This document shows, in pieces, positions 2,084-37,310 of a stretch of DNA of 44,657 nt. Source of the DNA: Betaproteobacteria bacterium (GTDB taxonomy: Bacteria > Pseudomonadota > Gammaproteobacteria > Burkholderiales > SG8-41); NCBI GenBank assembly GCA_016202615.1, contig JACQOI010000216.1:1-44657 (forward strand), given 5' to 3'. The translations under genes were made by a program, and so were the position numbers. Under the pieces are notes generated by a model, which was given only the letters and a program-made list of their open reading frames with translations, searched no databases and was not told where the DNA came from. The first letter of the stretch is position 1. The number at the start of each line of letters is the position of its first letter.

Positions 2084-2087
2084 GGTT

Positions 2088-3602: not shown

Positions 3603-3632
3603 GACCGGGCAATACCGTAGCGGCCGCGGTTT

Positions 3633-8784: not shown

Positions 8785-8789
8785 GCGGA

Positions 8790-14100: not shown

Positions 14101-14140
14101 TTGGCTGATTCCAGCGGCGTCTCCGGAAGCCCCCTCGAAA

Positions 14141-14246
14141 TCCCTCCCCTTCAAGGGGAGGGCTAGGGTGGGGATGGGTTAAAACAACGCGATGTGTATT
14201 CGCTCGCCCCACCCCCATCCTGATCTTCCCCCTGAGAGGGAAGGGA
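14141..14246. repeat. Inverted doublet of a ~38-bp G/C-tract repeat (REP/BIME-like)
   Basis: Copy A, 14141-14179: TCCCTCCCCTTCAAGGGGAGGGCTAGGGTGGGGATGGGT, containing the hairpin CCCTCCCCT-TCA-AGGGGAGGG. Copy B, 14207-14246: its reverse complement reads TCCCTTCCCTCTCAGGGGGAAGATCAGGATGGGGGTGGGG. The two copies are tail-to-tail with a 27-bp spacer. Confidence 0.6.
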
Positions 14247-18231: not shown

Positions 18232-18238
18232 CGGCCGC

Positions 18239-23659: not shown

Positions 23660-24598
23660 CTACTTGAGGTTTCGATAGTGGGCGATGGTTTCCGTCAGGC
23701 CCCGTTCGAGCGTGATCCGCGGCGCCCAGCCGAGCATGGAGCGCGCCTTCGCGGTATCCACGCTATAAGCCATCACTTCGCCCTGTCGGTACGGAAGCTT
23801 GCCCAACTGCAGCAGTCCCGGTTTGCCGGTCATGGCGGCGACTTTGTGCGCGAGCGCCGCGATGGTCACCGGTTGTCCGCCGCCGATATTCAGTATCTGC
23901 CCTGCGACGCCGGCGCGCGTCGCGGCCAGCAGCATTGCGTCAACCACATCGGACACGAACACAAAGTCACGGGTCTGCTCGCCCGCGGTCATCGGAAACG
24001 GCGTATCGCCGAGCAGCGACTGGATCAAGGCGGGCAGGAACATATCCGTGCTCTGCCCGGGGCCGTACGCGATCGTCGGGCGCAGTACCACGGCGGGAAG
24101 CCCGTGCAGATGGTGCAGGACCTCGCAGAGATGAGTCAGGGATTGCTTGGAATAGGAATAGGCGCTCACCGGGAACTCGCGCATCGATTCGCGGAAGGGG
24201 ACCGGGTTGCTCCCGTACTCCTCGGCAGTCCCTACGACTACCATTGCGCTCAAGGTCTGAAGCCTGGCTGCCGCAGCGAGTAGATAGAGGGACCCGAGCA
24301 CGTTGGTTTCCATGGCGGGCATGAAATCCTCGATCCGCGCCGAACGCTGCTTGAATGTGGCGAGGTGGAAGATCACGTCGGGCGCAGTTTCGCGCACCGT
24401 CTTTCCCACGAACGCGGCGTCCTTCAGATCGCCGATATGCTGGAGCGCCCCGGCCTGGACGGAAGCGCCGCCGCGGCTCAGCACCGCTACTCGCGCGCCG
24501 CCGGCGGTGAGGGCGGCGATGAGATGCCGCCCGATGAAACCGGTGCCTCCGGTCACCAGGACTTTTGCCCCGTTGAGGTCTCGAGGGTTCGTATTCAC
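23660..24598 (-). CDS. NAD-dependent epimerase/dehydratase-family SDR, 312 aa
   Basis: Trimmed to the GTG at 24598-24596 (VNTNPRDLNGAKVLVTGGTGFIGRH), which overlaps the upstream TGA (GTGA). YSYSKQSL catalytic motif. Confidence 0.8.
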   Translation of the reverse strand: MNTNPRDLNGAKVLVTGGTGFIGRHLIAALTAGGARVAVLSRGGASVQAGALQHIGDLKDAAFVGKTVRETAPDVIFHLATFKQRSARIEDFMPAMETNVLGSLYLLAAAARLQTLSAMVVVGTAEEYGSNPVPFRESMREFPVSAYSYSKQSLTHLCEVLHHLHGLPAVVLRPTIAYGPGQSTDMFLPALIQSLLGDTPFPMTAGEQTRDFVFVSDVVDAMLLAATRAGVAGQILNIGGGQPVTIAALAHKVAAMTGKPGLLQLGKLPYRQGEVMAYSVDTAKARSMLGWAPRITLERGLTETIAHYRNLK

Positions 24599-25326
24599 GG
24601 CGGCAGGCTCTTGGTTTCGTCCTTGTACGCGAGCACCGCAGTGTCGAGAAAAACATTGCGGTCGTCCGGCAGCAGCTTTTGGGCGGCCAATCCGAGAATC
24701 TGTATCGGCGCGCATACGCAGGCCGTTACCACTCTGCCGAATCCGCGCACCGGCAGGCGCAGATTATTGAAGACGTAGATCGAGCACGTCTGGGCCAGCG
24801 TTTCCACGCTGCCGCTGGTCTTGTGCATTGCCCGAATGCCGAAACCGCTGCGGTCGAGCAAGTGCCGCAGCCCGTGTTCAGTAAAGCGGAAGTAGTCGTA
24901 GGGCTTCTCATGCTCTTCCCACAGGAACGGAGCGGTCATGACCAGGCTGCCTCCGGGCTTCAGCACGCGCCAGATTTCGCCGAGCAGATTTTCGGGGCGG
25001 GCGGTGTGCTCGAGGACCTGCGTGCACAGCACGCCGTCGACCGTCCCCGACTGGATTGGCAGGCGGTCGCCGTCGAACAGCAGGTCATGCCGCTTGGAAA
25101 CAGGGGGGTGGCCGCTGACAAGCACGTCGAGGCCGATGTAACGCTCGACATCGAACATCGGTTCGTAGGGCCGTGCGCCGCAGCCCAAGTCGAGCCAGGT
25201 ACCCTGGCCGGCGAGCGCGAGCCGCTCGACCAGTTCCCCGACCGCCTGCCGCAAGCGCCGCCTCGCAATGAACGCGGGGTCGACGAAGACCTGCCACCAG
25301 CGTATCTGGCCCGAATCCTGGGTCAA
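24595..25326 (-). CDS. Class I SAM-dependent methyltransferase, 243 aa
   Basis: WLDLGCGARPY SAM loop, VLCTQVLEH and LKPGGSLVMTAP. The start codon at 25326 is TTG and there is no nearby in-frame ATG, so the start is uncertain. Confidence 0.7.
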   Translation of the reverse strand: MTQDSGQIRWWQVFVDPAFIARRRLRQAVGELVERLALAGQGTWLDLGCGARPYEPMFDVERYIGLDVLVSGHPPVSKRHDLLFDGDRLPIQSGTVDGVLCTQVLEHTARPENLLGEIWRVLKPGGSLVMTAPFLWEEHEKPYDYFRFTEHGLRHLLDRSGFGIRAMHKTSGSVETLAQTCSIYVFNNLRLPVRGFGRVVTACVCAPIQILGLAAQKLLPDDRNVFLDTAVLAYKDETKSLPP

Positions 25327-25345
25327 CTGGGTCCACCCGGCGCAT

Positions 25346-25891
25346 TCATCGCTTGATCGTCCGCAAATAGAACGACAGATCGTCCAACGGATACAAATGG
25401 CTCAGATACGCCTCGTAGTGGCCCGGCCAGCGGTTGGCAAGGCGCTTTACGCAAGCCGTGAGCAGTCCCCTTTCGATGGTTTCGTTGAAAACCACGCGCT
25501 CGGTGCGAAAGCGCGCCATCGAATAATTGTAAAGCCGGCTGTTCATGTGATCGGGGTCGAAATACGTGAACGAGTCCATGGTGAAGTAATGGCGATGCGT
25601 CGGATCGATGAATGCCCATTTGGACCGGAAATAAGGAACGATCACCTTGACCAGCGCGCCGGGCCTGCTGATGCGATGCAGCTCTTCCATGACGCGCACC
25701 GGCTCCGCCAGATGCTCGATGACGTTATCGGCGTAGATCTCATCGAACGTAGCGTCCTCGAAGGGATAGGGGAAGCAATTGAGGTCGTGTACGACATCGG
25801 CCGCGGTTCGCGGGTTGCTGTCTATCCCCACGGCGTCCGGGCGTTTACGATTCCCGCATCCAACGTCGAGAACAGCCGGTTTGGCGTCCAT
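25346..25891 (-). CDS. Class I SAM-dependent methyltransferase (Methyltransf_11-like), 181 aa
   Basis: MDAKPAVLDVGCGNRKRP SAM loop, IYADNVIEHL and SRPGALVKVIVP. ATG 25891-25889. Confidence 0.75.
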   Translation of the reverse strand: MDAKPAVLDVGCGNRKRPDAVGIDSNPRTAADVVHDLNCFPYPFEDATFDEIYADNVIEHLAEPVRVMEELHRISRPGALVKVIVPYFRSKWAFIDPTHRHYFTMDSFTYFDPDHMNSRLYNYSMARFRTERVVFNETIERGLLTACVKRLANRWPGHYEAYLSHLYPLDDLSFYLRTIKR

Positions 25892-25906
25892 GTCGCGAGA
25901 CCGCGG

Positions 25907-26923
25907 TCAGACCCGGAACGCGTAATACGGACAGCGCGAGCAGCAACCCGGAGATTTCTTGACAAAACCTTTCCGGAACCGCTCGATGTCCTCCGACGCC
26001 CAGAGCTCCTTGAACGGGACCTTGAGCACGTTGCCGAAGTTGATCTTTTCCTGGTGCAGGATCATGCAACACGGCTTCAGGTCCCCCTCCACCGTTACCG
26101 CGGGCGAGATCCAGGGTGACGGGCATACCTCGGCGCTCGGCAGGAACGGTTCGGGCATGATCTTCAAGTTCGGGAACTCCTTCAACCACCGGGGCAGGTT
26201 GGTATTGAGACTTGCCGCTTCGCCGGCGTCGAGCACGCCGCTGCCGTAACCCATGTCGAAGAAAGGCTGCAGCCAGACGTTGAACCTGCCCAGCTGGCTG
26301 AGCCGTTCGAACAGGTCGGGGAGGCGCGGCAGGTTGCCCTTGCTCACGGTCACCCGCACGCCGATCCTGTCCGGGAAACGCTCCGAGAACTCCCGCAAAC
26401 GCGCTTCGAGCTTGGGGATATCGGTCTCGGCGCGCAGCTTGCCGATGAGCTTTTCGTCGAGCGTGTCGACCGATACGGTGAGGCCGTTCAGGCCGGCTTC
26501 GAACAGCCTGGCGTAGAAATCGACGGCGCGCACGAGGGCATTGGTGTTGATCTCGATCCGGTCGAATTTCCCCGATTGTTTTGCGATGCGGATCAACTCG
26601 GTGATTTTCGGGTGCATCGTCGATTCCCCGATGCCCTGCGGGATGAACAGCTTGGCGGGAGGCAGCGCTTCGACCACGGTGCGGAAGTTCTGTACCGACA
26701 TGTGCCGATTGGACCAGGCGTTTTCGTCGGTCATGATCGTGCGTACGCATCCTGAGCACTTGAGATTGCAATACGTAGTGACCTCGACGACCACCATGTT
26801 GAGCTTGCTCGGAACGTGATAATCGTCCCCGGACATTTTGCGCCAGATCTTGCGGGCGGTCGTGCGCAGACCTTGTTGCTTTACGCTCGCGAGCAAGGTT
26901 GAAACCGGATTCTTCTTCGCCAT
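25907..26923 (-). CDS. Radical SAM enzyme with C-terminal SPASM/twitch-like Cys-rich domain, 338 aa
   Basis: CxxxCxxC cluster motif TTYCNLKCSGC near the N-terminus. C-terminal CPSPWISPAVTVEGDLKPCC fits Cx9-15Gx4C, followed by CCSRCPYY close to the end (partial SPASM, i.e. twitch-like). ATG 26923-26921. Confidence 0.8.
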   Translation of the reverse strand: MAKKNPVSTLLASVKQQGLRTTARKIWRKMSGDDYHVPSKLNMVVVEVTTYCNLKCSGCVRTIMTDENAWSNRHMSVQNFRTVVEALPPAKLFIPQGIGESTMHPKITELIRIAKQSGKFDRIEINTNALVRAVDFYARLFEAGLNGLTVSVDTLDEKLIGKLRAETDIPKLEARLREFSERFPDRIGVRVTVSKGNLPRLPDLFERLSQLGRFNVWLQPFFDMGYGSGVLDAGEAASLNTNLPRWLKEFPNLKIMPEPFLPSAEVCPSPWISPAVTVEGDLKPCCMILHQEKINFGNVLKVPFKELWASEDIERFRKGFVKKSPGCCSRCPYYAFRV

Positions 26924-26943
26924 TCAAGTTTTTCCGTTGCCGG

Positions 26944-27558
26944 TCACTGCGGCTGCCGCCGGTTGTCGATCGTTCTTATCACCCGTGCCGGCGCGCCGGC
27001 TGCGACATGATAGTCCGGGATATCGCTCGTCACCACCGAGTTGGCCCCGATCACGCAGTTCCTCCCGATCGTGACGTTCGGCAGTATCGAGACATTGATG
27101 CCTATCCAGGTGCCGTCGCCAATGCTGACGGGGCCCGGCGAGAACATGTACTGGTCCTTGATCGGCAGTTCCCGGTTCGCATAACCATGGTAACAATCGC
27201 CAATGAAAACCCGGTCTGAGATCATCACGTCGTTGCCAATGCGTATGTCGTTCATGCAGGCGAACGTTGCGAACCGGCCGATGTAGCAATTGTCGCCGAT
27301 GGCGAAGTTGGGGGACATAACGACATCGGGGGCGTTTTTCTGGTAATTAACGGGCAGCATGCTGATCCAGCAGAATTCCGCGATGAAAACGTTGTCGCCT
27401 ATCGTCACGCACTCCGGATGGTTGATTTTTATGCCGCGCTTGAGAATGACGCCGCGGCCCTTGTGCTTCAGGGCCCGGCGCAGGGGCAGTGAGCGCAGTC
27501 GCTCCACCCACAGCTCCATGCGGTTGAGCAATTGAATCAAGGTCTGGGCTGACGGCAT
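26944..27558 (-). CDS. Left-handed beta-helix (hexapeptide-repeat) O-acetyltransferase, 204 aa
   Basis: Hexapeptide repeats IGDNVFI, IGDNCYI, IGNDVMI, IGDGTWIGINVSILPNVTIGRNCVIGANSVV. Resembles maltose/galactoside acetyltransferase. Confidence 0.85.
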   Translation of the reverse strand: MPSAQTLIQLLNRMELWVERLRSLPLRRALKHKGRGVILKRGIKINHPECVTIGDNVFIAEFCWISMLPVNYQKNAPDVVMSPNFAIGDNCYIGRFATFACMNDIRIGNDVMISDRVFIGDCYHGYANRELPIKDQYMFSPGPVSIGDGTWIGINVSILPNVTIGRNCVIGANSVVTSDIPDYHVAAGAPARVIRTIDNRRQPQ

Positions 27559-27577
27559 CGTCGAGGATGGCCGGCGG

Positions 27578-29278
27578 TTACGGCGCCCCCACGGCAGCCA
27601 TTATCGCCGATCCCGACCGCAATGAGGCGATCACCCCGCTGTATAACTGTTCCATCGCGCGGTTGTCGAACCGCTCGAGCACATGGACTAGATCGGTTGC
27701 GTTTCCTGCGGCGGGGAAGGCGAACGGCCGAAGGCCGCCCACGCGCGCCGGGGACATGCCGAAGACCACTGCCGGGATGCCGAGCATGACGGCCTCGAAC
27801 AGGCCGGTCGTAAGGCCGAAGATCACAAGATCGAACCGGGGCATCAGCTCGGTCGTGCGCCGGGAGGGATCGACTATCGTGAAATCGAGCCCCGACACCT
27901 GCCGGAGCCGCTCGATTTCGGCCGATTTTGTCGTCAGGCTTGCTTCGGTGCCGCTGTGGACCTTCGCATGTATGTTCCGCGATTGCACACCCACGCGCGC
28001 CAGCGCTTCGCAGACCTCCGCCAACTCGATGATCGAGCAGTCCTCGCGGCTTGCCTGCGAGGCCACGGCCCAATCGGAGACGAGGACCAGCACTCGCACA
28101 TCGCGCCAGGGCGCTGACAGGGGCCGAAACGGCCGCGGCGAGTGCCGGAACTGGGGGTGGACCACCGCGACCGCTTGCCATCCTCGCCGCCGGAAAGCCG
28201 CGGCCGAAGATTCATTCCAGGCGAGGATCCGGTCGGGCAGGAATGGTGACGCCATGTGTTCGCCGGAGAAATCCTCGAAGATCAGGCCGTGCGGCAGGTA
28301 ATCCACTGCGATCCCCAGCCGGTGCGCCGCGTGTGCGAGCACACGACAGGCGTCGAGGCGGTCGTGTATCATCACGACGCGCTTCACGCCGAGTGGCCGC
28401 AGCATCCCGATCAGCGCTTCTTCGGTGCGATCGAGGAAGCCGGCGGGAAAGTCGTCGTCGAACGCGCGCAGCAGGCAATCGACAATCCGGATCTCGTCGT
28501 CGGCGAAGTGCTGCCGCCATGCCGCGCATCGTGCAAATCTCAGCGGCGCATCATCGAGCTCGATGGGCCGGTCGAGGAATGCAGTCGAACCGCGCAGCCC
28601 GAGCAGCTCACCTGCCTTTTCGAGGAGGCGGCCGGAAATGTTCAACGCCTTGATGAAACTGAGCCAGAAGATCCGCCTGTCCTTCAGGTCAATGTTCCAG
28701 TAGGACTGCACGAGAAAATCGCGCTTTCCGGAGAACGCTGCCGTGAGGCGCCAACGCAGCGCGCGCAATTTCCGTGGATCGAGCTTGCGCGGCAGCCCGT
28801 AAGTCCGCACGAGATACACGTGTGCCGAGGTTGCGTCGAGGCTTCCCGTCGCGACTTCGAGGCGTATGCCGGACTCGGCAGCGACCGCCCGGCACGCATG
28901 GACGAGGTCGCGGTCCGCGCCTGAAGAAAGATGGATCGCATCGGGCTCGATCCGCCGCACGAGATTCCTCAGGCAGCGCTTGACCCACAAATAGCGCGAC
29001 AGGCGATAGACGATGAGGAGGTAGGCGGCCGGCGCCCATCGCGAGTCGGAATGTTCCCGCGCTTCGGTGTGCAGGCAATGATCGAGGTCGCGGTAGAGTG
29101 TCGTGTCGAGCGCCTCGCCCACCTGTTCGCCGGGCGCGAAGTCGGAAAACCGCCAGCTGGCGATATTCCTCCGCGCCAGGCCGAGGTGCCGGATCGGGCT
29201 GAGGCACACGATCGCCTGGAACTCGTCCAGCGCGCCGAAATACTCGCCGCAAAGAAGTATTACTGCGTTTCGCTTCAT
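27578..29278 (-). CDS. Orphan 566-aa protein, GT-B-like C-terminal half; function unknown (candidate glycosyl/nonulosonate transferase)
   Basis: The track start at 29326 is a TTG. Trimmed to the ATG at 29278-29276 (MKRNAVILLCGEYFG). The C-terminus (RVLVLVSDW..., TELMPRFDLVIFGLTTGLFEAVMLGIPAVVFG) has Rossmann-like strand-helix periodicity typical of GT-B donor domains. No family recognised by eye. Confidence 0.4.
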   Translation of the reverse strand: MKRNAVILLCGEYFGALDEFQAIVCLSPIRHLGLARRNIASWRFSDFAPGEQVGEALDTTLYRDLDHCLHTEAREHSDSRWAPAAYLLIVYRLSRYLWVKRCLRNLVRRIEPDAIHLSSGADRDLVHACRAVAAESGIRLEVATGSLDATSAHVYLVRTYGLPRKLDPRKLRALRWRLTAAFSGKRDFLVQSYWNIDLKDRRIFWLSFIKALNISGRLLEKAGELLGLRGSTAFLDRPIELDDAPLRFARCAAWRQHFADDEIRIVDCLLRAFDDDFPAGFLDRTEEALIGMLRPLGVKRVVMIHDRLDACRVLAHAAHRLGIAVDYLPHGLIFEDFSGEHMASPFLPDRILAWNESSAAAFRRRGWQAVAVVHPQFRHSPRPFRPLSAPWRDVRVLVLVSDWAVASQASREDCSIIELAEVCEALARVGVQSRNIHAKVHSGTEASLTTKSAEIERLRQVSGLDFTIVDPSRRTTELMPRFDLVIFGLTTGLFEAVMLGIPAVVFGMSPARVGGLRPFAFPAAGNATDLVHVLERFDNRAMEQLYSGVIASLRSGSAIMAAVGAP

Positions 29279-29485
29279 TTCCGGCGCCCCCGAATCAACC
29301 GCCCGGCCGCTCGCCGCGGCCGCCAAAGTCCTGCTGCCGTCACAAAACCGGCGGCGTCAGGAGCGAAGAACAGCAGCGACGTTTGGAACGGCCATAGGAT
29401 AGCAGCGATTACCTGCGCGGATACTTTCCGGGATCGCCTCGATGAAATTCAGCCGCGCTTTGTTATCGAATTTGCGCGCGCGAAC

Positions 29486-31444: not shown

Positions 31445-31637
31445 TGCAACTCCTTAATTTTACGGCAGATTCATGCTATTTCCGAGTAATTTAGTCAGAT
31501 ATTAGCATACCCTCTGACGTTCAGGTAGGCGTATGTGCATGACAAACCTCGCCGCCCCTTGCCCCAAACTGACCGAGATGATAATCCATCTCATTAAAGA
31601 ATGCATGGTTGGCGAGATTTTGGTTTAGACTTAGTCT
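31445..31637. promoter_or_regulatory. AT-rich divergent promoter region between the two paralogous B12-radical SAM genes
   Basis: 193-bp gap between divergent genes. On the minus strand there is an extended -10-like TGCTAATAT (31507-31499), about 55 nt upstream of ATG 31444. On the plus strand there is a weak TTGCCC (31559-31564) followed by TGATAATCC (31579-31587). All of these are candidates only. Confidence 0.35.
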
Positions 31638-33638
31638 ATGCGTATCTCTCTTCTGACCGTACCGGTCGAGACGAATTACATGGATTTCCTTCCCGAGGTC
31701 CGCGCGGAAACCGACATCCTGGTTCCATCGACGCGTTCCGAAGGCCAGCTGCCGGTGATACCCAAGATCGCCATCGTCAGCCTCATCAAATGGATGGAGC
31801 GCCACGGCTACACACGGGATCAGTACGATTACTACGACGTGGACATGCTCCTGCCCTCGGACAAGGAGTTGCTTGACTATTTCAAGAGCTACAACCCGAC
31901 TATCATTGGCCTGAGCGCGGTGGTCTCAACCTGCTACGCCCAAGTCAAACGGATCTCGAGGCTTCTTCGCCAAGCCTGCCCGGACGCCTGGATCGTGTTG
32001 GGCGGTAGTCTTACCGCGTCCTCCAATTTGATCCTGCGCAAGACGGAAGTGGACATTTGCGTGGTCGGCGACGGCGAGATCGCCTGGGTCGATTTCCTCG
32101 ATTACGTGAAGGCCCGCGGCCGCAAGAAGGACTTCAACGCGCTGGGCAATATCACGGGCCTTGCTTTCCTCGACGATGCGGGCGAGCTGCGCTTCACCGG
32201 TTATGGAAAGCAGATTCCCGCCGAACTCAACCCCTTTCCCGACTACGACATCCTCAAGGCGGGGCTTAGGACCCGTCCGCAGGAATTTGCGAATTACTTC
32301 CGCCCCGGTCTGGGATCAACGCACTTCCTGACCGATCCCCGTTCCCTTGAGCCACATCGTCGACCGATGCTCGCCCAGTTGTGGAGTTCCAAGGGCTGCG
32401 TCGCTCGCTGCACCTTCTGCCAGCGTTCCACCAAGGGTTACCGCGTCCTGGGCGTGGATTCGTTGGACGACCATTTGAAGATGCTCGCGAAGCGCTTCAA
32501 CGTCGGCTATATCCACATCCTGGATGAAAATTTTTCCTCCGACAGGGAATATGCCTACGAGCTTGCCCGAACCATGAAAAGGCATGACATGCTGTGGATG
32601 GCCAGCGGCGTTCGCGTCTCCTCGGTCGATTACGACGATATCAAATTCTACAAGGAGCATGGCTGCGTTAGCCTCAAATTCGGCGTCGAATCCGGCAGCC
32701 AGAAAATCATGGACGTGATGGAGAAGAAGTTCACGGTCGAGCGTGTTTTTCAGACTCTTAAACACTGCGCGGATCTGGATGTTTACTCCCCGCTTGCGGT
32801 CATGGTCGGTATGCCCGGCGAGACTTGTGAGACCGCGGCCGAAACTGGCCGCTTTCTCGGGCGCATTGCGCACATGCAAGGTGTTGATCCACAATGGCTC
32901 GGCCTTTCCTGTTTCTACGCACTGCCGCTGACTGGCACTCCGTTATATGTCTACGGCCAACAGGCCGGTGTTATCGGCAAGACCCCGGAGAAGGAGGAGG
33001 ATTACCTGCTCTCTGTCTCCGGTAGCGGGGCCAGCAAAATCAACTACGTCAATCTTAACGGTGCGAACGTCCGCGATGTGGTCTGGTGGGACTGGCTGGT
33101 CAAGCTCGAGGCCCAACGCACTTTCTTTGATCTCGTGAAAAAAACGCCCTTGGGCGAGCCTGGCCACATGCAGAGAGTCCTCGTCAGCGATAGGGAACGC
33201 GAGATAGTGGGCCGTGCGCTGACTCTTCGCAAGATTCTGGACAGCGTCAAGAATTGCAATCTACGCGTGGTCAAGGCCAAGATCTTCTACTGGGTTGAGG
33301 ATGTGCTCATGGAACGCGTTGTAGTCCCGAGCAGGCTTGTTGCGAGTCTCCCGCGCTGGCTCATCTATCCTCTCTTCAAGAATCTGGTCTATGTCAACTT
33401 TTTGGTACAGGGGTATGCTTTGCGCGCGTTCGGCAAGTCCTTCAGCCTGTGGAAGAAGTGGCCAGCCGTCGAGCCCGTACGTGAGGCGCAGAAAGTCCAT
33501 GCGCGCGAAGTGCAGAGAGTTAACGTGAAACTCAACATTCAAAGATCTCTGCGGAGGGTGGTGCGTGAGCGCACCCGAGAACATCCGCCCGCCTCGCAAA
33601 CCGAAGCAAACCAGGACATTCTCTCCATCGGTCTCTGA
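31638..33638 (+). CDS. B12-binding-domain radical SAM enzyme (class B), paralog of 29486-31444, 666 aa
   Basis: Colinear with the minus-strand paralog from Met1: PTIIGLSAVVSTCY...WIVLGGSLT, an identical SKGCVARCTFCQR motif, GMPGETCET, and a shared C-terminal PPAS..EAN...L..GL ending. Confidence 0.85.
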   Translation: MRISLLTVPVETNYMDFLPEVRAETDILVPSTRSEGQLPVIPKIAIVSLIKWMERHGYTRDQYDYYDVDMLLPSDKELLDYFKSYNPTIIGLSAVVSTCYAQVKRISRLLRQACPDAWIVLGGSLTASSNLILRKTEVDICVVGDGEIAWVDFLDYVKARGRKKDFNALGNITGLAFLDDAGELRFTGYGKQIPAELNPFPDYDILKAGLRTRPQEFANYFRPGLGSTHFLTDPRSLEPHRRPMLAQLWSSKGCVARCTFCQRSTKGYRVLGVDSLDDHLKMLAKRFNVGYIHILDENFSSDREYAYELARTMKRHDMLWMASGVRVSSVDYDDIKFYKEHGCVSLKFGVESGSQKIMDVMEKKFTVERVFQTLKHCADLDVYSPLAVMVGMPGETCETAAETGRFLGRIAHMQGVDPQWLGLSCFYALPLTGTPLYVYGQQAGVIGKTPEKEEDYLLSVSGSGASKINYVNLNGANVRDVVWWDWLVKLEAQRTFFDLVKKTPLGEPGHMQRVLVSDREREIVGRALTLRKILDSVKNCNLRVVKAKIFYWVEDVLMERVVVPSRLVASLPRWLIYPLFKNLVYVNFLVQGYALRAFGKSFSLWKKWPAVEPVREAQKVHAREVQRVNVKLNIQRSLRRVVRERTREHPPASQTEANQDILSIGL

Positions 33639-33657
33639 AGCGCGGCAGATAGTCGTT

Positions 33658-34440
33658 CTACAAGGTGAAGCCGTCGTCTACTACGATGTTCTGCCCGGTC
33701 ACGAAAGCCGACCAATCCGACAGCAGGTAAATCAAGGTGCCGCTGATGTCGGTGCGGTCCAGCATGCCCTTGGTCTGGCAATGCCGCCGGTAGTTCTCGA
33801 GGAAAACGGCGGGCTGCCCGTCTTCAATGCCGCCCGGGCTGACGGAGTTTACGCGCACGCCGGTCCCCTTGAGCAGCTTCGCCAGATAGCGCGTCAACTG
33901 GATAATCCCGGCCTTGATCACCGCGTACTCGACCGGCATTGTCATGCTCGTGCCCTCATAGATTTCGAAGCGTGGCGCTATCACGCCGTAGATCGAAGCG
34001 ATGTTGACGATGCTGCCGCCGCCGGTCCGCGACATGGCCTTGGAAAACCGCTGGCAGGTGAGGAAGTAGCCGCCAAGATGAGCGTCGATGTTGGCGCAGA
34101 AATCGCCGTACTCGACATCGAAAAACTGGCGCCCGTGGTTGGGAGCGTAATTGGGAGTGCGAGGATACGCCGCATTCACGAGGCCGTCGATGCGTCCATA
34201 TCGCTTGATGGTCTCACCGACCAGGGCCTCCACGCTTTCCGGCTGGGTAATATCGACCGCGTATGCTGTCGATTTGCTTTTGGGGGCCAGCTTCAGCAAG
34301 TCGGCTAGCGCTGCTTCCGCCGAAGCAAGCGCGACGTCTGCAAGGATCGCAGTGCCCCGCTGCAATGCGATGGCCTTGGCGAACTCCCTGCCCAGCAGAC
34401 CGGCCCCGCCGGTTACGACGATGACCTTGGCTTCAAGCAT
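33658..34440 (-). CDS. Short-chain dehydrogenase/reductase (PtmA-like, as found beside CMP-nonulosonate synthetase genes), 260 aa
   Basis: MLEAKVIVVTGGAGLLGREFA Rossmann motif, NIASIYG and YAVIKAG (YxxxK). The track start is the GTG at 34449; I prefer the ATG at 34440, which overlaps the upstream gene by 8 nt. Confidence 0.8.
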   Translation of the reverse strand: MLEAKVIVVTGGAGLLGREFAKAIALQRGTAILADVALASAEAALADLLKLAPKSKSTAYAVDITQPESVEALVGETIKRYGRIDGLVNAAYPRTPNYAPNHGRQFFDVEYGDFCANIDAHLGGYFLTCQRFSKAMSRTGGGSIVNIASIYGVIAPRFEIYEGTSMTMPVEYAVIKAGIIQLTRYLAKLLKGTGVRVNSVSPGGIEDGQPAVFLENYRRHCQTKGMLDRTDISGTLIYLLSDWSAFVTGQNIVVDDGFTL

Positions 34441-35149
34441 GTTTTGCACGCGCCTTCATCAGGTGCTCAACGATCATGAAATCCAATTCCGAATCGATGT
34501 CCACGGAGCGCTCCTCCGGCATTACGTAGAGCAGTGTATCCGGATTGAACAACGTGTCGCTGCCGAACAGCGACTGGCGGTGCCATACATAGATTGAAGC
34601 GTTCATATCGTAGCAGGCCGGGGCGTCCTGGCGTCGGGCAATCGGTCGTGGCGACGGTTTTGACAGCCGCGCGATGCCGTCCTGCCCGACTTCGACCAGG
34701 TTGAAATAGGGCGATCGCCGCGCAGGAGCTCCCGTAATGACGTTCGAAACGCGGCGGTCTTCAAGCATTGCGGTGGCGTTGACAATGTCCTGCGGTTCGC
34801 GCAGCGGTGAGGTCGCATCGAGATCAACGACGGTATCAAAGTTGTGCCCGGCAAGGCGCTCTGTCTCGGTCACGCAATGCCGGATCGCGGGCAGTTTGGG
34901 CGCCGTGTCGCTTGCCAGTTCGGCCGGCCGCTCGATCAGGTGATCGGCGCCGTAATTACGCGCAGCGGCCAGGATTTCAGACGAATCGCTGCTCACCGCG
35001 ATGGCGTCGAACAGGCCACTGGCGCGCGCCTGTTCGAGGCTGTGAGCAAGCAGCGGTCTGCCGAGCAGCGGGCGCAGATTCTTGTTTGGCACGCCCTTGG
35101 ATCCGCCGCGAGCACAGAGGGTGCAGAGCCGTTTCACGGCGTCACCCAT
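34433..35149 (-). CDS. legF: Acylneuraminate/nonulosonate cytidylyltransferase (CMP-legionaminic acid synthetase candidate), 238 aa
   Basis: CARGGSKGVPNKNLRPLLGRPLLAHSL is the CTP_transf_3 (NeuA) N-terminal signature; also DATSPLR. Sits in an operon with leg genes. The symbol could equally be neuA. Confidence 0.8.
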   Translation of the reverse strand: MGDAVKRLCTLCARGGSKGVPNKNLRPLLGRPLLAHSLEQARASGLFDAIAVSSDSSEILAAARNYGADHLIERPAELASDTAPKLPAIRHCVTETERLAGHNFDTVVDLDATSPLREPQDIVNATAMLEDRRVSNVITGAPARRSPYFNLVEVGQDGIARLSKPSPRPIARRQDAPACYDMNASIYVWHRQSLFGSDTLFNPDTLLYVMPEERSVDIDSELDFMIVEHLMKARAKHA

Positions 35150-35186
35150 GTTGCGTCCTCAATCGAAGGCCTCACGTCGATCTGCA

Positions 35187-37310
35187 TCAGTGGGCCAGGG
35201 TATAGCGCGTATAGCGGTCCACATCGGTATCGGCGAACAGCTCTTCGGTGCCGTCGGCGCCCTCCACGTTCCGAAACAGGCTTTCCAGGTTGCTGATGCG
35301 CGTGACGATCTTGGACAGCGCGTTGACGTCGGTGCCGTAGCGGCGGAACTGGTCTTCGCGCGTCCGCAGCTGTTCGTCCGTGTAATAAAACCGGTATGCC
35401 CTGGGCTGGTTAAATTGAAATGTGCTGAGCGCCGTGCCTTCCGGAGAACGCAACCAAGCGGGCACATCGTGTCTGAGAAGCAGGGTCACAGGCTCGGTAT
35501 TGCCCCTGGAATTCAGCAGTCCCTCGATACGCGCCTGGCAGAAGGCGGATATCGTATCGATTTCCGTACCCGCGACGGCGAGCGCGTCGTCCTGGAGCCG
35601 CTCCCCGGCCAACATGCGCAGCTCTGCAACCAGGTAGCGGATCCAGTCTCCGGCCTGGAAAGCAACGCTTTTCGATTTGTACTTGTAGATCAGGTTGCCG
35701 CCCACCTCACCCCGACGCAGGCGCTGGAAGTTGACCTCGTCCTTGTAATGCTCCAGCAACTCGTCTTCGGAGGCCCACAATTCCCCCTCGGTCTCGGCCA
35801 TGAAGTCGGCGTATAGGGCGCGAATTGTCTCAGGCGCCCGGGCAAGGGATTCGTAAAGCCGCCGTAGCAGGGTGGCGCGCTTGATGCCCAACGAAAGCGC
35901 GTAGCGGAACAATTCCTCGAACGGACGTCCGTTGTGGATGCTTTCCACGATCAGCGCGAAACCCCGCAAAAAAAGATAATCCGCGAATGACATGGTATTG
36001 GTCCGGACGCAGACCTCTTCATAATCAAGCACCCGCCCGCCATCATAGTCGCCGAAGTTCAGCGGCACGATACGAAACCGGCCTTCGATGCCAAAACGGC
36101 GGCGGTAGTCGGGTTCCTTGAACTCGGTGCCATTCAGCAGCATCAGCGTATAGATAGTCACCGACGACGCGCCTGACTCGATCACCGCCTCGACGCCGTT
36201 AACGAAGCTTTCACGGGTTTCGCCGGGCAGTCCGATAATCAATTCCGCCTTGGTGGAGCGGCCGGCCTCACTGAGGTGTTTGTTGATATCGATGTAGTGT
36301 TCGAGCTTGATGTTGGAACGGCGAATGTTTTCCAGGACGCCCTTGTCCATGGACTGCACCGACATGTTCACCGAGAACATCTTGCCGAGGATGCCGGTTA
36401 TTTCGATCACGCGTTCCTTGGCGTTCTTCCCGGTGGTTGCCATTACCTGGCGCGGCCAGTCAAATTTCTGCTGCGTTTCGTAAAGAGCTTCGCAGATCTC
36501 GCGATCGCGCGGAAACATCCCGAAATTGGTGTCCGCGATATGCAGGTTGGACACCTTCAATTGGGCGGCGCGGGGTGCAATGTAAAAAATTTCCTCCCGC
36601 ACCCGCTCAATGGAAAACGAATTCATCTTTTGGAAGTAATCTGCGCCGGTATGGCAGAACGAGCACCTGAACGGACACCCGCGGTTAGTCTCGATAAACG
36701 GTGTGAGTCGACCGTCGAAGAAGTGCTCCAGCATGCCGTTTAAATAGGGCGAAGGGATGACGTCCAGATTACGCAGACGTGCAGGCGCCTGCGTCTTTAC
36801 CAGAGTCGGGGAGGCCGATCCGCGCGTTGACGGTTCGATGAAGATAATGCCCTCGATGGGCGCGTCGAATACCGTCCGGCCGCCTTCGCGGGCATCGAGC
36901 ACGCGCCGGACGAGATTGGCGAACGCGACCTCGCCTTCGTACTCGATATGAGCGTCCGTCGCTGGCCGGCGCAGCAAAAACTCGATCCTCAGCGCATCAT
37001 CATGGGGGAAGTTTGTGCCGCCTTGCACCACCACCGCAGCCGGGTTCGCGGCACGCGCCGCTGCAGCGACGCGCTCCGACAGGTTCGAGTTCCATGAATA
37101 GTTCGAAAGACCCAGTATGTCCGGCGGGTCAGCCTTGATCGCGGCCAGGGCAACGGCCGGATATTTGTACAGAGAAACCCTGACCGCATCGCCGAACTGC
37201 TGCTTGGCGTAGCTGCCCACGAACCCGATGTTGATGGGGATGGTGTCAGACACCAGGATGATTGAATCATGGGTCAGATCGCACAGGCAGATCTTCAGCG
37301 GCCTGCTCAC
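35187..37310 (-). CDS. B12-binding-domain radical SAM enzyme with ~300-aa C-terminal helical extension, 707 aa
   Basis: Trimmed to the GTG at 37310-37308 (VSRPLKICLCDLTHD), which overlaps the upstream TGA (GTGA). B12-type segment PDILGLSNYSWNSNL...VVVQGGTNFP. Cluster motif NRGCPFRCSFCHTG; GLPGETRESF. G+C 33-35 per 60 nt in two hand-counted lines, versus 40 per 60 in legC. Confidence 0.85.
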   Translation of the reverse strand: MSRPLKICLCDLTHDSIILVSDTIPINIGFVGSYAKQQFGDAVRVSLYKYPAVALAAIKADPPDILGLSNYSWNSNLSERVAAAARAANPAAVVVQGGTNFPHDDALRIEFLLRRPATDAHIEYEGEVAFANLVRRVLDAREGGRTVFDAPIEGIIFIEPSTRGSASPTLVKTQAPARLRNLDVIPSPYLNGMLEHFFDGRLTPFIETNRGCPFRCSFCHTGADYFQKMNSFSIERVREEIFYIAPRAAQLKVSNLHIADTNFGMFPRDREICEALYETQQKFDWPRQVMATTGKNAKERVIEITGILGKMFSVNMSVQSMDKGVLENIRRSNIKLEHYIDINKHLSEAGRSTKAELIIGLPGETRESFVNGVEAVIESGASSVTIYTLMLLNGTEFKEPDYRRRFGIEGRFRIVPLNFGDYDGGRVLDYEEVCVRTNTMSFADYLFLRGFALIVESIHNGRPFEELFRYALSLGIKRATLLRRLYESLARAPETIRALYADFMAETEGELWASEDELLEHYKDEVNFQRLRRGEVGGNLIYKYKSKSVAFQAGDWIRYLVAELRMLAGERLQDDALAVAGTEIDTISAFCQARIEGLLNSRGNTEPVTLLLRHDVPAWLRSPEGTALSTFQFNQPRAYRFYYTDEQLRTREDQFRRYGTDVNALSKIVTRISNLESLFRNVEGADGTEELFADTDVDRYTRYTLAH

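What the first reader, a model, noticed from the sequence alone, without database searches (positions are those of the whole stretch)
24595..37310. Radical-SAM/cobalamin-rich tailoring block inside a surface-glycan island: candidate undescribed radical glycan-modification system
This 12.7-kb stretch contains two class I methyltransferases (24595-25326, 25346-25891), a SPASM/twitch radical SAM enzyme (25907-26923), an LbH acetyltransferase and an orphan 566-aa GT-B-like protein. It also contains two paralogous B12-binding radical SAM enzymes (29486-31444, 31638-33638) and, after an SDR and a CMP-nonulosonate synthetase, a third B12-binding radical SAM enzyme (35187-37310). All four radical SAM proteins keep an intact CxxxCxxC motif (CNLKCSGC, CVARCTFC twice, CPFRCSFC). 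Across the whole window, 10 of 41 CDS are SAM-utilising: six methyltransferases plus four radical SAM enzymes. Established knowledge: class B (cobalamin) radical SAM enzymes methylate unactivated carbon or phosphorus centres, for example in aminoglycoside and fosfomycin pathways. They are not part of any textbook O-antigen, capsule or nonulosonic acid pathway. There is no precursor peptide, RRE, protease or ABC exporter that would suggest a RiPP cluster, and every neighbour is a sugar enzyme. Inference: these enzymes act on nucleotide-linked or lipid-linked sugars, possibly the nonulosonic acid itself, and produce an unusually C-/O-methylated glycan.
Basis: partly seen in the sequence, partly recalled or inferred. 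Interest (0 to 1): 0.8.

Follow-up and report, generated by a model that had tools for sequence, protein, structure and literature searches.

The report
Cobalamin radical-SAM enzymes in legionaminic-acid locus
A bacterial surface-sugar gene island carries four radical-SAM enzymes next to and inside a complete pathway for a sialic-acid-like sugar, and both cobalamin-type families recur beside that pathway in many phyla, so they probably add carbon (methyl) groups to these sugars, a chemistry not yet described for them.

Summary
All genes, coordinates and CxxxCxxC motifs are as stated. Window 33658-44318 is a complete GDP-GlcNAc-type legionaminic acid (leg/ptm) operon. One B12-radical SAM enzyme ("C", 35187-37310) lies inside it, and two paralogous ones ("A" and "B", 44% identical) lie beside it.

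C is a clear homolog of TokK and CysS, which are iterative sp3 C-methylases (profile E 4e-63). A and B form a large unnamed family with a class-1 cobalamin-rSAM fold. No curated NCBIfam family is reached, including BchE, HpnJ, HpnR, PhpK and RiPP methylases.

In 164 related loci, about half of the long ones carry NeuB or a CMP-nonulosonate synthetase within 10 kb. This holds for both families, often with direct adjacency, and for A/B it spans more than 10 phyla including cultured Paramagnetospirillum magneticum. Family C sits between neuB and legG in several operons.

I found no paper linking radical SAM enzymes to nonulosonic acids. Two mass-spectrometry studies report unexplained "C10" CMP-ulosonic acids with a CH2 ladder in Magnetospirillum gryphiswaldense.

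Best reading: these enzymes C-methylate the nonulosonic acid or a precursor. Linkage to the pathway is well supported. The chemistry and the site are inferred. It is a new variant of a known enzyme kind and of high interest.

The parts
43314..44318 (-). LegB-like NDP-sugar 4,6-dehydratase. First gene of the leg operon.
   Evidence: Pfam GDP_Man_Dehyd 6.6e-75. 83-84% identical orthologs in syntenic L002/L003.
42136..43317 (-). LegC-like DegT-family aminotransferase.
   Evidence: Pfam DegT_DnrJ_EryC1 3.8e-92.
40976..42265 (-). LegG-like hydrolysing 2-epimerase.
   Evidence: Pfam Epimerase_2 1.2e-91.
39907..41001 (-). LegI/NeuB nonulosonic acid synthase.
   Evidence: Pfam NeuB 1.4e-94 plus SAF.
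39263..39967 (-). LegH-like PglD-type N-acetyltransferase.
   Evidence: Pfam PglD_N plus Hexapep.
38218..39318 (-). PtmE-like CBS + nucleotidyltransferase. It marks the GDP-GlcNAc route.
   Evidence: Pfam NTP_transferase 2.5e-42 plus CBS.
37307..38221 (-). GFO/IDH/MocA oxidoreductase at the ptmF position. Its stop overlaps the start of rSAM C by 4 bp.
   Evidence: Pfam GFO_IDH_MocA N and C domains. Coordinates.
35187..37310 (-). B12-radical SAM 'C', 707 aa, motif CPFRCSFC. TokK/CysS/KedN5-like candidate iterative sp3 C-methyltransferase, sitting inside the leg operon between ptmF and legF.
   Evidence: family profile vs TokK 4.1e-63, CysS 3.7e-52. Family embedded in leg operons elsewhere.
34433..35149 (-). 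CMP-nonulosonate synthetase (LegF/PtmB-like).
   Evidence: Pfam CTP_transf_3 9e-22. PseF model 125.7 bits, below its cut-off of 205.7.
33658..34449 (-). PtmA-like SDR.
   Evidence: NCBIfam PRK09186 330.8 bits (cut-off 255). FlagModPtmA 251 bits (cut-off 350).
31638..33638 (+). B12-radical SAM 'B', 666 aa, motif CVARCTFC. One of only two + strand genes assigned in the window (the other is 9513-11381). Divergent from A across a 193-bp, 43.5% GC spacer.
   Evidence: Best relative is in an Elusimicrobia MAG (L007, 57%).
29486..31444 (-). B12-radical SAM 'A', 652 aa, motif CVARCTFC, 50% GC. Member of a large unnamed family with a class-1 cobalamin-rSAM fold.
   Evidence: AF2 pLDDT 82. Foldseek hits MgmA, TsrM, OxsB, TokK and AprD4. 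Neighbourhoods.
27578..29326 (-). Orphan protein of about 566-582 aa with a GT-B-type fold. Candidate transferase or polymerase. Rare, lineage-specific family.
   Evidence: No Pfam, NCBIfam or PDB sequence hit. 77 representatives among 1.84e9 proteins. AF2 pLDDT 93. GT-B matches at E 3e-6 to 1e-4. Found only in L001 and L003 among 164 loci.
26944..27558 (-). LbH O-acetyltransferase (WbbJ/WcaF-like).
   Evidence: Pfam Hexapep 3.5e-21. NCBIfam WbbJ 108.8 bits, below its cut-off.
25907..26923 (-). Radical SAM/SPASM enzyme, 338 aa, motif CNLKCSGC. No B12 domain.
   Evidence: Pfam Radical_SAM plus SPASM. No NCBIfam cut-off reached. 62-65% orthologs in L001/L003. Distant SPASM relatives in 16 of the related loci.
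25346..25891 (-). Class I SAM methyltransferase, 181 aa.
   Evidence: Pfam Methyltransf_11. Conserved in L001, L003 and L024.
24595..25326 (-). Class I SAM methyltransferase, up to 243 aa.
   Evidence: Pfam Methyltransf_11/23. Conserved in L001, L003 and L024.
23660..24715 (-). NAD-dependent epimerase/dehydratase. Part of the conserved block.
   Evidence: Pfam Epimerase 4.2e-48. Same position in L001.
22418..23653 (-). GT4 glycosyltransferase. Part of the conserved block.
   Evidence: Pfam Glycos_transf_1 2.9e-30. 59-63% orthologs at the same position in L001/L003.

Best explanation
The block is an accessory tailoring module of a GDP-GlcNAc-type legionaminic acid (Leg) pathway, inside a Wzx-type surface-polysaccharide island.

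Shown:
- A complete leg/ptm gene set lies at 33658-44318.
- One cobalamin-type radical SAM enzyme (C) is inserted into that operon, and two paralogs (A, B) lie directly beside it.
- Both families are large, uncharacterised, and recurrently linked to NeuB and CMP-nonulosonate synthetase genes; for A/B this holds across phyla.

Inferred mechanism:
- C resembles TokK and CysS. It would use methylcobalamin plus a 5'-deoxyadenosyl radical to place one or more methyl groups on an unactivated sp3 carbon. The target would be the nonulosonic acid or its 6-deoxy-hexose precursor.
- The most attractive site is the terminal 9-deoxy methyl group (C6 of the precursor). Methylating it would lengthen the backbone to C10 and beyond.
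- A and B would do a related radical alkylation, or another cobalamin-dependent radical step, on the same sugar.
- The SPASM enzyme, two class I methyltransferases and the LbH O-acetyltransferase would add further decorations.
- The GT-B-fold orphan and the GT4 enzyme would install the product into the glycan.

Approximate confidence by step: functional link to the nonulosonic acid pathway 0.75-0.8; C-methylation chemistry 0.5; terminal-methyl site 0.25.
For: 1. The Leg gene set is complete. It comprises LegB, LegC, LegG, LegI/NeuB, LegH, PtmE (CBS + NTP_transferase), a GFO/IDH/MocA oxidoreductase at the ptmF position, a CMP synthetase and a PtmA-like SDR.

2. C is tightly packed into that operon. 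It overlaps the ptmF-position gene by 4 bp and lies 37 bp from legF.

3. C is homologous to enzymes with solved structures that methylate sp3 carbon iteratively. As a single sequence: TokK 2.6e-45 over residues 24-467, CysS 8.5e-40. As a family profile: 4.1e-63 and 3.7e-52. KedN5 family 222 bits.

4. The C family (2,062 proteins at E<=1e-10 among the 8,000 candidates scored; the best 120 are 52-100% identical) sits inside leg operons in unrelated contigs.
- L083, L084 and L112 carry whole leg sets around it.
- L117, L120 and L121 read legH-neuB-C-legG; L124 has the same genes with an extra gap of about 2.4 kb between neuB and C.
- 13 of 23 loci of at least 12 kb carry NeuB or LegF.
- Of the 22 loci that carry NeuB or LegF, the gene lies within 5 kb of C in 21.

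5. The A/B family (1,927 proteins at E<=1e-10 among the 8,000 candidates scored) shows the same linkage.
- 24 of 47 loci of at least 15 kb carry NeuB or LegF.
- These span Pelagibacteraceae, Elusimicrobia, Nitrospira, Nitrospina, Rhodospirillales, Planctomycetota, Actinomycetota, Acidobacteria and Undinarchaeota.
- Of the 30 loci that carry NeuB or LegF, the gene lies within 2 kb of the rSAM in 9.

6. In cultured Paramagnetospirillum magneticum the homolog lies between ptmE and a CMP synthetase. That cluster has two NeuB genes and a SPASM radical SAM enzyme.

7. The whole block is syntenic in a Sulfuritalea MAG (L003) and in L001.

8. The model of A has the class-1 cobalamin-rSAM fold. Its best matches are MgmA 6.7e-17, TsrM, OxsB and TokK.

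9. Chemistry that needs such enzymes has been observed without an assigned gene. M. gryphiswaldense makes CMP-linked alpha-keto acids at m/z 679.1983, 693.2139 and 707.2296, spaced by CH2. They give a C10 backbone marker fragment that the authors argue is not O-methylation (bioRxiv 10.64898/2026.04.20.719630). [quoted passage not shown]
Against: - There is no biochemical or genetic evidence for any of these proteins.
- I could not show that M. gryphiswaldense itself encodes either family.
- About half of the long related loci show no NeuB or LegF within 10 kb. A 34%-identical homolog of C in an Azospirillum oryzae plasmid sits in a four-radical-SAM, glycan-like cluster with no annotated nonulosonic acid genes within 12 kb.
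- I ran no random-gene control, so part of the enrichment could reflect general clustering of glycan genes.
- A and B are only remotely related to any characterised enzyme. They match the non-cobalamin dehydratase AprD4 about as well as they match the methylases, so methyl transfer is not established for them.
- The island also encodes several other sugar pathways that could supply the substrate.
Confidence: 0.55

Rival explanations
1. The B12-radical SAM enzymes tailor a different component of the same glycan, not the nonulosonic acid. Candidates are a 6-deoxyhexose, an amino sugar or an N-acyl or O-methyl substituent. For example, they could extend an acetyl or methoxy group, as CysS and KedN5 extend methoxy groups.
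For: The island encodes several other NDP-sugar pathways. These include RmlC-like epimerases, three extra dehydratases, two extra nucleotidyltransferases, a TylC3-type C-methyltransferase, FemAB-like and deacetylase genes. A distant C homolog in Azospirillum oryzae lies in a glycan-like cluster with no annotated nonulosonic acid genes. About half of the long related loci show no NeuB or LegF within 10 kb.
Against: C is inside the leg operon here and between neuB and legG in L117, L120 and L121. A-family members are directly adjacent to NeuB or CMP synthetase genes in many phyla. The reported unusual M. gryphiswaldense species still lose two N-acetyl groups and one O-acetyl group before giving a C10 backbone marker, which argues for backbone rather than substituent extension. 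An N-acyl target on the nonulosonic acid itself would still be nonulosonic acid tailoring.
Confidence: 0.2
2. A and B (and possibly C) are not methyltransferases. They would catalyse another radical reaction on the sugar: AprD4-like diol dehydration or deoxygenation (with an SDR partner), epimerisation, or OxsB-like rearrangement or ring contraction.
For: The model of A matches AprD4 (2e-13) and OxsB (1e-13) almost as well as the methylases. Sequence similarity of A/B to any methylase is confined to the radical SAM core. An SDR (PtmA-like) lies next to B.
Against: The Pfam B12-binding domain is above the gathering score in A and B (41.1 and 46.0 vs 32.1). Most characterised class-1 cobalamin-rSAM enzymes are methylases. 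C is close to TokK and CysS. PtmA-like SDRs are already present in leg clusters that lack radical SAM genes (own knowledge of the C. jejuni ptm locus).
Confidence: 0.17
3. The radical SAM enzymes serve an unrelated pathway (RiPP, lipid or hopanoid, tetrapyrrole, phosphonate) and lie in the glycan island only by chance or by horizontal insertion.
For: A and B are compositionally foreign: 50% and 57% GC against 60% for the window, with a 43.5% GC spacer. A carries a hydrophobic C-terminal helix. The weak top NCBIfam hits are PhpK, BchE, HpnJ and ladderane-lipid models.
Against: All those hits are far below their cut-offs (74-99 bits vs 360-600). There is no precursor peptide, RRE, protease or transporter in the block. 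Linkage to nonulosonic acid genes is repeated for both families, and for A/B across phyla. C overlaps the ptmF-position gene by 4 bp.
Confidence: 0.05

Closest known systems
TokK/ThnK (carbapenem C6 alkylation), CysS (cystobactamid) and the KedN5 family of methylcobalamin-dependent radical SAM C-methyltransferases
   Same: rSAM C shares the N-terminal cobalamin domain and the radical SAM domain. TokK E 2.6e-45 over residues 24-467 and CysS 8.5e-40. Family profile 4.1e-63 and 3.7e-52. KedN5 HMM 222 bits over residues 67-521. These enzymes build alkyl branches by successive methylation of sp3 carbon (own knowledge).
   Different: C does not reach the KedN5 family cut-off (222 vs 700 bits). It has its own conserved C-terminal region of about 240 residues. 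It lies in a primary surface-glycan (Leg) operon, not a secondary-metabolite cluster. Its substrate would be a nonulosonic acid or a precursor.
Campylobacter jejuni ptm/leg flagellin-glycosylation locus (GDP-GlcNAc route to CMP-legionaminic acid, with PtmG/PtmH tailoring)
   Same: The same gene set is present: LegB, C, H, G, I, F plus PtmE, PtmA and a GFO/IDH/MocA gene at the ptmF position. The same logic applies: tailoring genes are interleaved with core genes and act on nucleotide-sugar intermediates (own knowledge of Schoenhofen et al. 2009).
   Different: Tailoring in C. jejuni uses an amidotransferase and a class I N-methyltransferase. No radical SAM or cobalamin enzyme is known there. 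Here the locus sits with Wzx and polytopic membrane proteins, which points to a polysaccharide. No flagellin or Maf gene is in the window.
GenK, GenD1 and Fms7 (cobalamin radical SAM C-methylation of aminoglycoside sugars)
   Different: They act in antibiotic pathways on pseudo-oligosaccharides. I ran no direct comparison here. No cell-surface nonulosonic acid substrate is known for them.
MgmA/QCMT (PDB 9CCB), the methyl-coenzyme M reductase glutamine C-methyltransferase
   Same: It is the closest solved structure to rSAM A, both by sequence (1.4e-11, core only) and by fold (6.7e-17, TM 0.69 on the target). It was identified through.
   Different: Identity is only about 19%. MgmA is about 420-450 aa and acts on a protein. 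A and B are 650-666 aa, have an extra C-terminal helical region with a hydrophobic helix, and lie in sugar loci.
AprD4/AprD3 (radical SAM diol dehydratase plus reductase; C3' deoxygenation of paromamine)
   Same: The fold matches the model of A (2e-13). The substrate is an amino sugar. It works with an NAD(P)H reductase partner.
   Different: AprD4 does not use cobalamin. The sequence match is weak (6.3e-06). The NCBIfam AprD4 model scores 30.8 bits against a cut-off of 500.

Membership tests
Class B (cobalamin-dependent) radical SAM enzymes | CxxxCxxC motif within a Radical_SAM (PF04055) domain | tested here: met
   A and B carry CVARCTFC and C carries CPFRCSFC. PF04055 scores 69.4, 68.0 and 56.0 bits against a cut-off of 29.5.
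Class B (cobalamin-dependent) radical SAM enzymes | N-terminal cobalamin-binding Rossmann domain (PF02310) | tested here: met
   A 41.1 and B 46.0 bits against a cut-off of 32.1. C scores 26.5, below the cut-off, but it aligns with the cobalamin domain of TokK from residue 24. The model of A superposes on MgmA, TsrM, OxsB and TokK.
Class B (cobalamin-dependent) radical SAM enzymes | Cobalamin actually bound, and methyl transfer from methylcobalamin | not testable with these tools
   This needs purified protein. AprD4 shows that the fold can exist without cobalamin.
KedN5 family methylcobalamin-dependent C-methyltransferases (NF033712) | HMM score at or above the curated cut-off (700 bits) | tested here: not met
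   C scores 222 bits, E 1.2e-65, over residues 67-521. A and B score about 42 bits. C is therefore a relative, not a member.
   Best scores for A/B are PhpK 85.6/98.8 (cut-off 600), BchE 85.2/74.2 (481), HpnJ 77.6/93.8 (578), HpnR 22.5/26.3 (650) and rSAM_ocin_1 54.2/64.7 (282).
RiPP biosynthetic cluster | Precursor peptide, RRE/PqqD domain, leader protease or exporter next to the radical SAM enzyme | tested here: not met
   All neighbours are sugar enzymes. Only unsupported 20-34 codon ORFs lie in the A/B spacer.
GDP-GlcNAc legionaminic acid pathway (leg/ptm) | Full enzyme set: 4,6-dehydratase, aminotransferase, N-acetyltransferase, hydrolysing 2-epimerase, NeuB-type synthase, CMP synthetase, plus PtmE (CBS-NTP transferase), PtmF and PtmA | tested here: met
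   All nine genes are contiguous at 33658-44318. This is domain-level evidence. PtmA scores 251 bits against an equivalog cut-off of 350, and PRK09186 scores 331 against 255. The gene at the ptmF position is named from its GFO/IDH/MocA domains and operon position only. The PseF model is not reached (125.7 vs 205.7), so the pathway is not typed as Pse. Stereochemistry (Leg versus an epimer) cannot be tested.
SPASM/twitch radical SAM enzymes | Radical_SAM domain plus C-terminal SPASM auxiliary-cluster domain | tested here: met
   PF04055 50.7 bits and PF13186 46.7 bits, both above cut-off. No named subfamily is reached (best 104.5 vs 400).
GT-B glycosyltransferases (orphan 27578-29326) | Two Rossmann-like domains with an inter-domain cleft; match to a CAZy or Pfam GT family | tested here: inconclusive
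   The fold is supported: pLDDT 93, and Foldseek matches GT-B enzymes and UDP-GlcNAc 2-epimerases at E 3e-6 to 1e-4 with TM 0.4-0.5 on the target. No sequence family matches. Whether it is a transferase, an epimerase or a polymerase is undecided.

The most novel reading that the evidence does not exclude
Two widespread, uncharacterised cobalamin radical SAM families are the missing enzymes that extend the carbon skeleton of legionaminic- or pseudaminic-type sugars. One is TokK/CysS-like and the other is new. By iterative radical C-methylation they would create C10, C11 and C12 'higher ulosonic acids'. That sugar class has so far been seen only as unexplained mass-spectrometry signals in Magnetospirillum gryphiswaldense. 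If so, radical C-C bond formation is a common route of sialic-acid-family diversification in environmental bacteria and archaea, including SAR11.
Probability: 0.3. Interest if true: 0.88.

Novelty: new variant of a known kind. Interest (0 to 1): 0.74.

Why it matters
Nonulosonic acids cap the flagella, capsules, O-antigens and S-layers of many bacteria and archaea. They influence immune recognition, phage adsorption and cell-surface charge. Their known diversification is limited to N-acyl, O-acyl and O/N-methyl changes made by conventional enzymes.

If cobalamin radical SAM enzymes alkylate the carbon skeleton, several things follow:
1. It would add a new chemical dimension to this sugar family.
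2. It would assign a function to two protein families of roughly two thousand or more members each. These are currently mislabelled as 'BchE-like cyclase', 'YgiQ' or just 'radical SAM protein'.
3. It would supply candidate genes for the unexplained C10 CMP-ulosonic acids of Magnetospirillum. That open observation would become directly testable in genetically tractable relatives such as P. magneticum.
4. It would link surface-glycan structure to cobalamin availability in abundant environmental lineages such as Pelagibacteraceae, Nitrospina and Elusimicrobia.
5. It would provide new biocatalysts for making sialic acid analogues.

Tried and rejected
1. Characterised B12-rSAM families (BchE, HpnJ, HpnR, PhpK, ladderane lipid, BzaD, QCMT, TsrM, RiPP methylases): all far below NCBIfam cut-offs. 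Rejected as assignments.

2. RiPP cluster: no RRE, protease or exporter, and no credible precursor ORF. Rejected.

3. Cobalamin riboswitch or any other Rfam element in the window: none at gathering thresholds.

4. The orphan as a universal partner of the radical SAM enzymes: its HMM hits only L001 and L003 among 164 loci, and it has no similarity to the unknown 570-670 aa proteins next to the Magnetospirillum homologs. Rejected. It is lineage-specific.

5. The orphan as a Maf or known sialyltransferase family: no Pfam hit even at E<=5. Only a generic GT-B fold.

6. Direct link to M. gryphiswaldense: the third protein search found related magnetotactic species but not MSR-1 among the 120 listed hits. 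Cluster look-ups added no names. Unresolved.

7. Plasmid collection: no A-family hit. C-family hits are distant, namely an Azospirillum glycan-like cluster without annotated nonulosonic acid genes and ThnK-like genes in the thienamycin producer.

8. Literature: six full-text searches combining 'radical SAM' or cobalamin terms with nonulosonic, legionaminic, pseudaminic, NeuB, sialic acid or flagellin found no paper on such enzymes. A 2026 review of B12-rSAM enzymes contains no mention of 'sugar', 'glycan', 'polysaccharide', 'sialic' or 'aminoglycoside'.

9. Long ORFs on the opposite strand (6293-7486, 17233-18306, 19060-20280) and 141-1619 have no Pfam hits. I treated them as high-GC artefacts or unknowns.

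10. The promoter and terminator scan was no better than shuffled sequence.

Full report
**1. What is in the window**

The window is a whole 44,657-bp metagenomic contig of 60% GC. All but two of the assigned genes lie on the minus strand. Pfam and NCBIfam scans of 40 ORFs show a surface-glycan island with these elements:
- a Wzx-type flippase (2088-3602)
- two polytopic membrane proteins of unknown family (7369-8784 and 9513-11381)
- GT2 and GT4 transferases
- several NDP-sugar dehydratase, epimerase and nucleotidyltransferase sets
- a TylC3-type sugar C-methyltransferase (6146-7690)
- FemAB-like and deacetylase genes

**2. The right-hand third is a complete legionaminic acid operon**

Genes 43314-44318 down to 33658-34449 are contiguous. 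In order they encode:
- a LegB-type dehydratase
- a LegC-type aminotransferase
- a LegG-type 2-epimerase
- a NeuB/LegI synthase
- a PglD/LegH-type acetyltransferase
- a PtmE-type CBS-nucleotidyltransferase
- a GFO/IDH/MocA oxidoreductase at the ptmF position
- B12-radical SAM enzyme C
- a CMP-nonulosonate synthetase
- a PtmA-like SDR

This is the gene content of the GDP-GlcNAc route known from the Campylobacter ptm/leg locus (own knowledge; the NCBIfam 'flagellin modification protein PtmA' model scores 251 bits). rSAM C overlaps the ptmF-position gene by 4 bp and ends 37 bp before legF, so it is an operon member.

**3. The four radical SAM proteins**

- A (652 aa) and B (666 aa) are 44% identical end to end. 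C (707 aa) is related to them only in the radical SAM core.
- None reaches the curated cut-off of any NCBIfam family.
- C is a clear relative of TokK and CysS, whose structures are solved and which methylate sp3 carbon repeatedly. Single sequence: 2.6e-45 and 8.5e-40. Family profile: 4.1e-63 and 3.7e-52. C also relates to the KedN5 family (222 bits against a cut-off of 700).
- A and B have only core-level similarity to any solved protein. The best is 9CCB at 1.4e-11, identified as the MCR glutamine C-methyltransferase MgmA/QCMT.
- An AlphaFold model of A (pLDDT 82) superposes on all class-1 cobalamin-rSAM structures: MgmA 6.7e-17, TsrM, OxsB and TokK. It also superposes on the cobalamin-free dehydratase AprD4.
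- A has a C-terminal helical region of about 150 residues with a hydrophobic helix. The A/B family ends in a conserved motif.
- The SPASM enzyme has only weak matches to metalloenzyme maturases and to the tetraether lipid synthase Tes.

**4. The orphan protein**

It has no Pfam, NCBIfam or PDB sequence match. Only 77 representatives exist among 1.84 billion cluster representatives. A model built on 42 of them is confident (pLDDT 93). It has a GT-B-type two-Rossmann fold, with distant matches at E 3e-6 to 1e-4 to NeuC and other UDP-GlcNAc 2-epimerases, CalG1, HepE, HMW1C, TagF and a capsule polymerase. The activity is undecided.

**5.

A/B family:
- It has 1,927 members at E<=1e-10 among the 8,000 candidates scored. 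All are unnamed or mislabelled as BchE- or YgiQ-like.
- A scan of one genome per species returned 80 loci. I compared all window proteins with them by tblastn.
- Of 47 loci of at least 15 kb, 22 carry a NeuB homolog and 24 carry NeuB or a CMP-nonulosonate synthetase within 10 kb.
- Of the 30 loci of any length that carry such a gene, it lies within 2 kb of the rSAM in 9 and within 5 kb in 18.
- The carriers span Pelagibacteraceae, Elusimicrobia, Nitrospira, Nitrospina, Rhodospirillales, Planctomycetota, Actinomycetota, Acidobacteria, Gammaproteobacteria and Undinarchaeota.

C family:
- It has 2,062 members at E<=1e-10 among the 8,000 candidates scored. The 120 best are 52-100% identical to the window protein.
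- It gave 80 metagenomic loci. 13 of 23 loci of at least 12 kb carry NeuB or LegF.
- Of the 22 loci that carry such a gene, it lies within 5 kb of C in 21.
- C is embedded in the operon: legH-neuB-C-legG in L117, L120 and L121, and whole leg sets around it in L083, L084 and L112.

Synteny of the whole block:
- The closest relative of the window is a Sulfuritalea MAG (L003).
- Its gene order is legB-C-G-I-H, ptmE, ptmF, legF, ptmA, rSAM A, rSAM C, LbH, orphan, SPASM, MT, MT, epimerase, GT4.
- A JGI contig (L001) shares the tailoring half.
- The tailoring block is therefore a conserved unit. In the window, C has moved into the operon and a second A-type paralog (B) has been added.
- B's nearest relative is from Elusimicrobia, at 57%. 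A and B are compositionally foreign at 50% and 57% GC. Both points suggest horizontal acquisition.

Cultured carriers exist. Homologs occur in Magnetospirillum sp. UT-4 and ME-1, Magnetospira thiophila, Paramagnetospirillum caucaseum and P. magneticum. In P. magneticum the gene lies between ptmE and a CMP synthetase, in a cluster with two NeuB genes, two CMP synthetases and a SPASM radical SAM enzyme. Distant SPASM relatives recur in 16 of the related loci.

**6. What is known**

- Full-text searches that combined radical SAM or cobalamin terms with nonulosonic, legionaminic, pseudaminic, NeuB, sialic acid or flagellin found no paper describing such enzymes.
- A 2026 review of B12-radical SAM enzymes contains none of the words 'sugar', 'glycan', 'polysaccharide', 'sialic' or 'aminoglycoside'.
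- A 2013 comparison of Legionella pneumophila LPS loci (the O-antigen is polylegionaminic acid; own knowledge) lists an uncharacterised radical SAM ORF, 13-c, in some strains.
- The 2026 SugarBase preprint describes CMP-linked alpha-keto acids there at m/z 679.1983, 693.2139 and 707.2296. These are spaced by CH2. [quoted passage not shown] The authors argue this is not O-methylation and assign no genes (bioRxiv 10.64898/2026.04.20.719630).

**7. Most likely mechanism**

Shown: the radical SAM genes are real, conserved and genetically tied to the Leg pathway.

Inferred:
- C, like its relatives TokK and CysS, would transfer methyl groups from methylcobalamin to a substrate radical generated by 5'-deoxyadenosyl. 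It may do so iteratively.
- The 9-deoxy terminal methyl of Leg is an unactivated sp3 carbon of exactly the kind this clade extends. It corresponds to C6 of the 6-deoxy-hexose precursor. Methylating it would give the C10 and higher backbone and the CH2 ladder seen in Magnetospirillum.
- The operon position of C, between neuB and legG or between ptmF and legF, suggests action on a pathway intermediate or on CMP-Leg rather than on the finished polymer.
- A and B probably perform a related cobalamin-dependent radical step on the same sugar. Their hydrophobic C-terminal helix leaves open a membrane-associated, lipid-linked substrate.
- The SPASM enzyme, the two small methyltransferases and the LbH O-acetyltransferase would add further decorations. 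The GT-B orphan and the GT4 enzyme would transfer the product.

Weak points:
- There is no biochemistry.
- MSR-1 itself was not shown to carry the genes.
- About half of the long loci lack detectable NeuB or LegF.
- I ran no random-gene control.
- A distant C homolog in Azospirillum lies in a glycan-like cluster without annotated nonulosonic acid genes.
- The A/B fold is equally compatible with non-methylating chemistry.

**8. Verdict**

It can be sharpened: the radical SAM enzymes are not merely 'in a glycan island'. They belong to two large families that are accessory to nonulosonic acid pathways.

In kind, this is a new variant of a known enzyme class: cobalamin radical SAM enzymes, already known to act on aminoglycoside sugars. 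It applies that class to a sugar family where such chemistry has not been described. It offers candidate genes for an unexplained analytical observation, and tractable hosts are available to test it.

Noticed in passing
L010-L012, L016, L017, L019, L022, L025, L029, L035, L065 (Pelagibacteraceae single-cell genomes and MAGs): A/B-family proteins with B12-binding domains are common in SAR11 genomes, and some lie near NeuB/LegG genes (L010, L011). SAR11 is usually regarded as lacking cobalamin-dependent enzymes (own knowledge). Either some SAR11 use cobalamin for surface-glycan tailoring, or the domain does not bind cobalamin there.
   Followed up: no
window 29486-33638 and 11414-14154: There are two low-GC patches in a 60% GC contig. 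In the first, rSAM A is 50% GC, the A/B spacer 43.5% and rSAM B 57%. In the second, a GT2 is 48%, a dehydratase 51.5% and a nucleotidyltransferase 50%. This suggests separately acquired cassettes. I did not search for flanking repeats or mobility genes.
   Followed up: partly
window 6146-7690 (-): A conventional TylC3-type NDP-hexose C-methyltransferase is present (Methyltransf_14 2.9e-67). The island therefore carries both SAM-nucleophilic and radical routes to C-methyl sugars. Paired TylC3-like genes also sit near the radical SAM genes in L001, L002 and L163.
   Followed up: partly
window 14346-17389 (-): A polysaccharide deacetylase, a FemAB-family protein and a truncated-looking DegT-like protein lie side by side. 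This hints at an amino sugar carrying an aminoacyl or peptide substituent.
   Followed up: no
L001 and L002, positions 251-9910: The upstream block has a split transketolase (N and C halves), a second radical SAM/SPASM enzyme, a class I methyltransferase, two TylC3-like C-methyltransferases, DUF6016 and an SDR. It looks like a pathway to a branched-chain sugar. DUF6016 also occurs next to the P. magneticum leg genes.
   Followed up: no
L165 (Azospirillum oryzae plasmid NZ_CP054615.1, 218967-244961): This cluster in a cultured strain has four annotated radical SAM proteins, one of them a 34%-identical homolog of C. It also has two carbamoyltransferase-domain proteins, a GNAT, methyltransferases and an epimerase. 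It is another radical-SAM-rich, glycan-like locus, without annotated nonulosonic acid genes.
   Followed up: partly
L163 17299-19545 (Paramagnetospirillum magneticum): A 748-aa NeuB fusion protein carries an AP_endonuc_2 (xylose isomerase-like TIM barrel) domain and faint CBS hits. It lies beside a second CMP synthetase and an MBOAT acyltransferase.
   Followed up: no
rSAM A residues about 540-652 and rSAM B residues about 560-666 (window 29486-29820 and 33320-33638): The A/B family has a conserved C-terminal tail. R627 is invariant, and S625, L626, V630, L648 and G651 are nearly invariant, so the proteins end in ...GL. In A the tail is preceded by a hydrophobic helix (556-575; modelled at pLDDT 81-95). 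This could be a membrane or partner-docking element.
   Followed up: partly
Literature: Legionella pneumophila LPS locus, ORF 13-c (PMC3766260): Some serogroup 1 strains (Lens, 130b, HL 06041035, Gorlitz 6543) carry an uncharacterised radical SAM ORF in the LPS biosynthesis locus. The O-antigen made by that locus is polylegionaminic acid (own knowledge). I could not test its relation to the window's proteins.
   Followed up: no
window 141-1619 (-), 3633-4718 (-), 7369-8784 (-), 9513-11381 (+): Four sizeable ORFs have no family assignment. 141-1619 has no hits. 3633-4718 has only weak methyltransferase hits (E about 2e-3). Two are polytopic membrane proteins with 7-8 predicted helices, possibly Wzy-like polymerases or GT-C enzymes.
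   Followed up: partly
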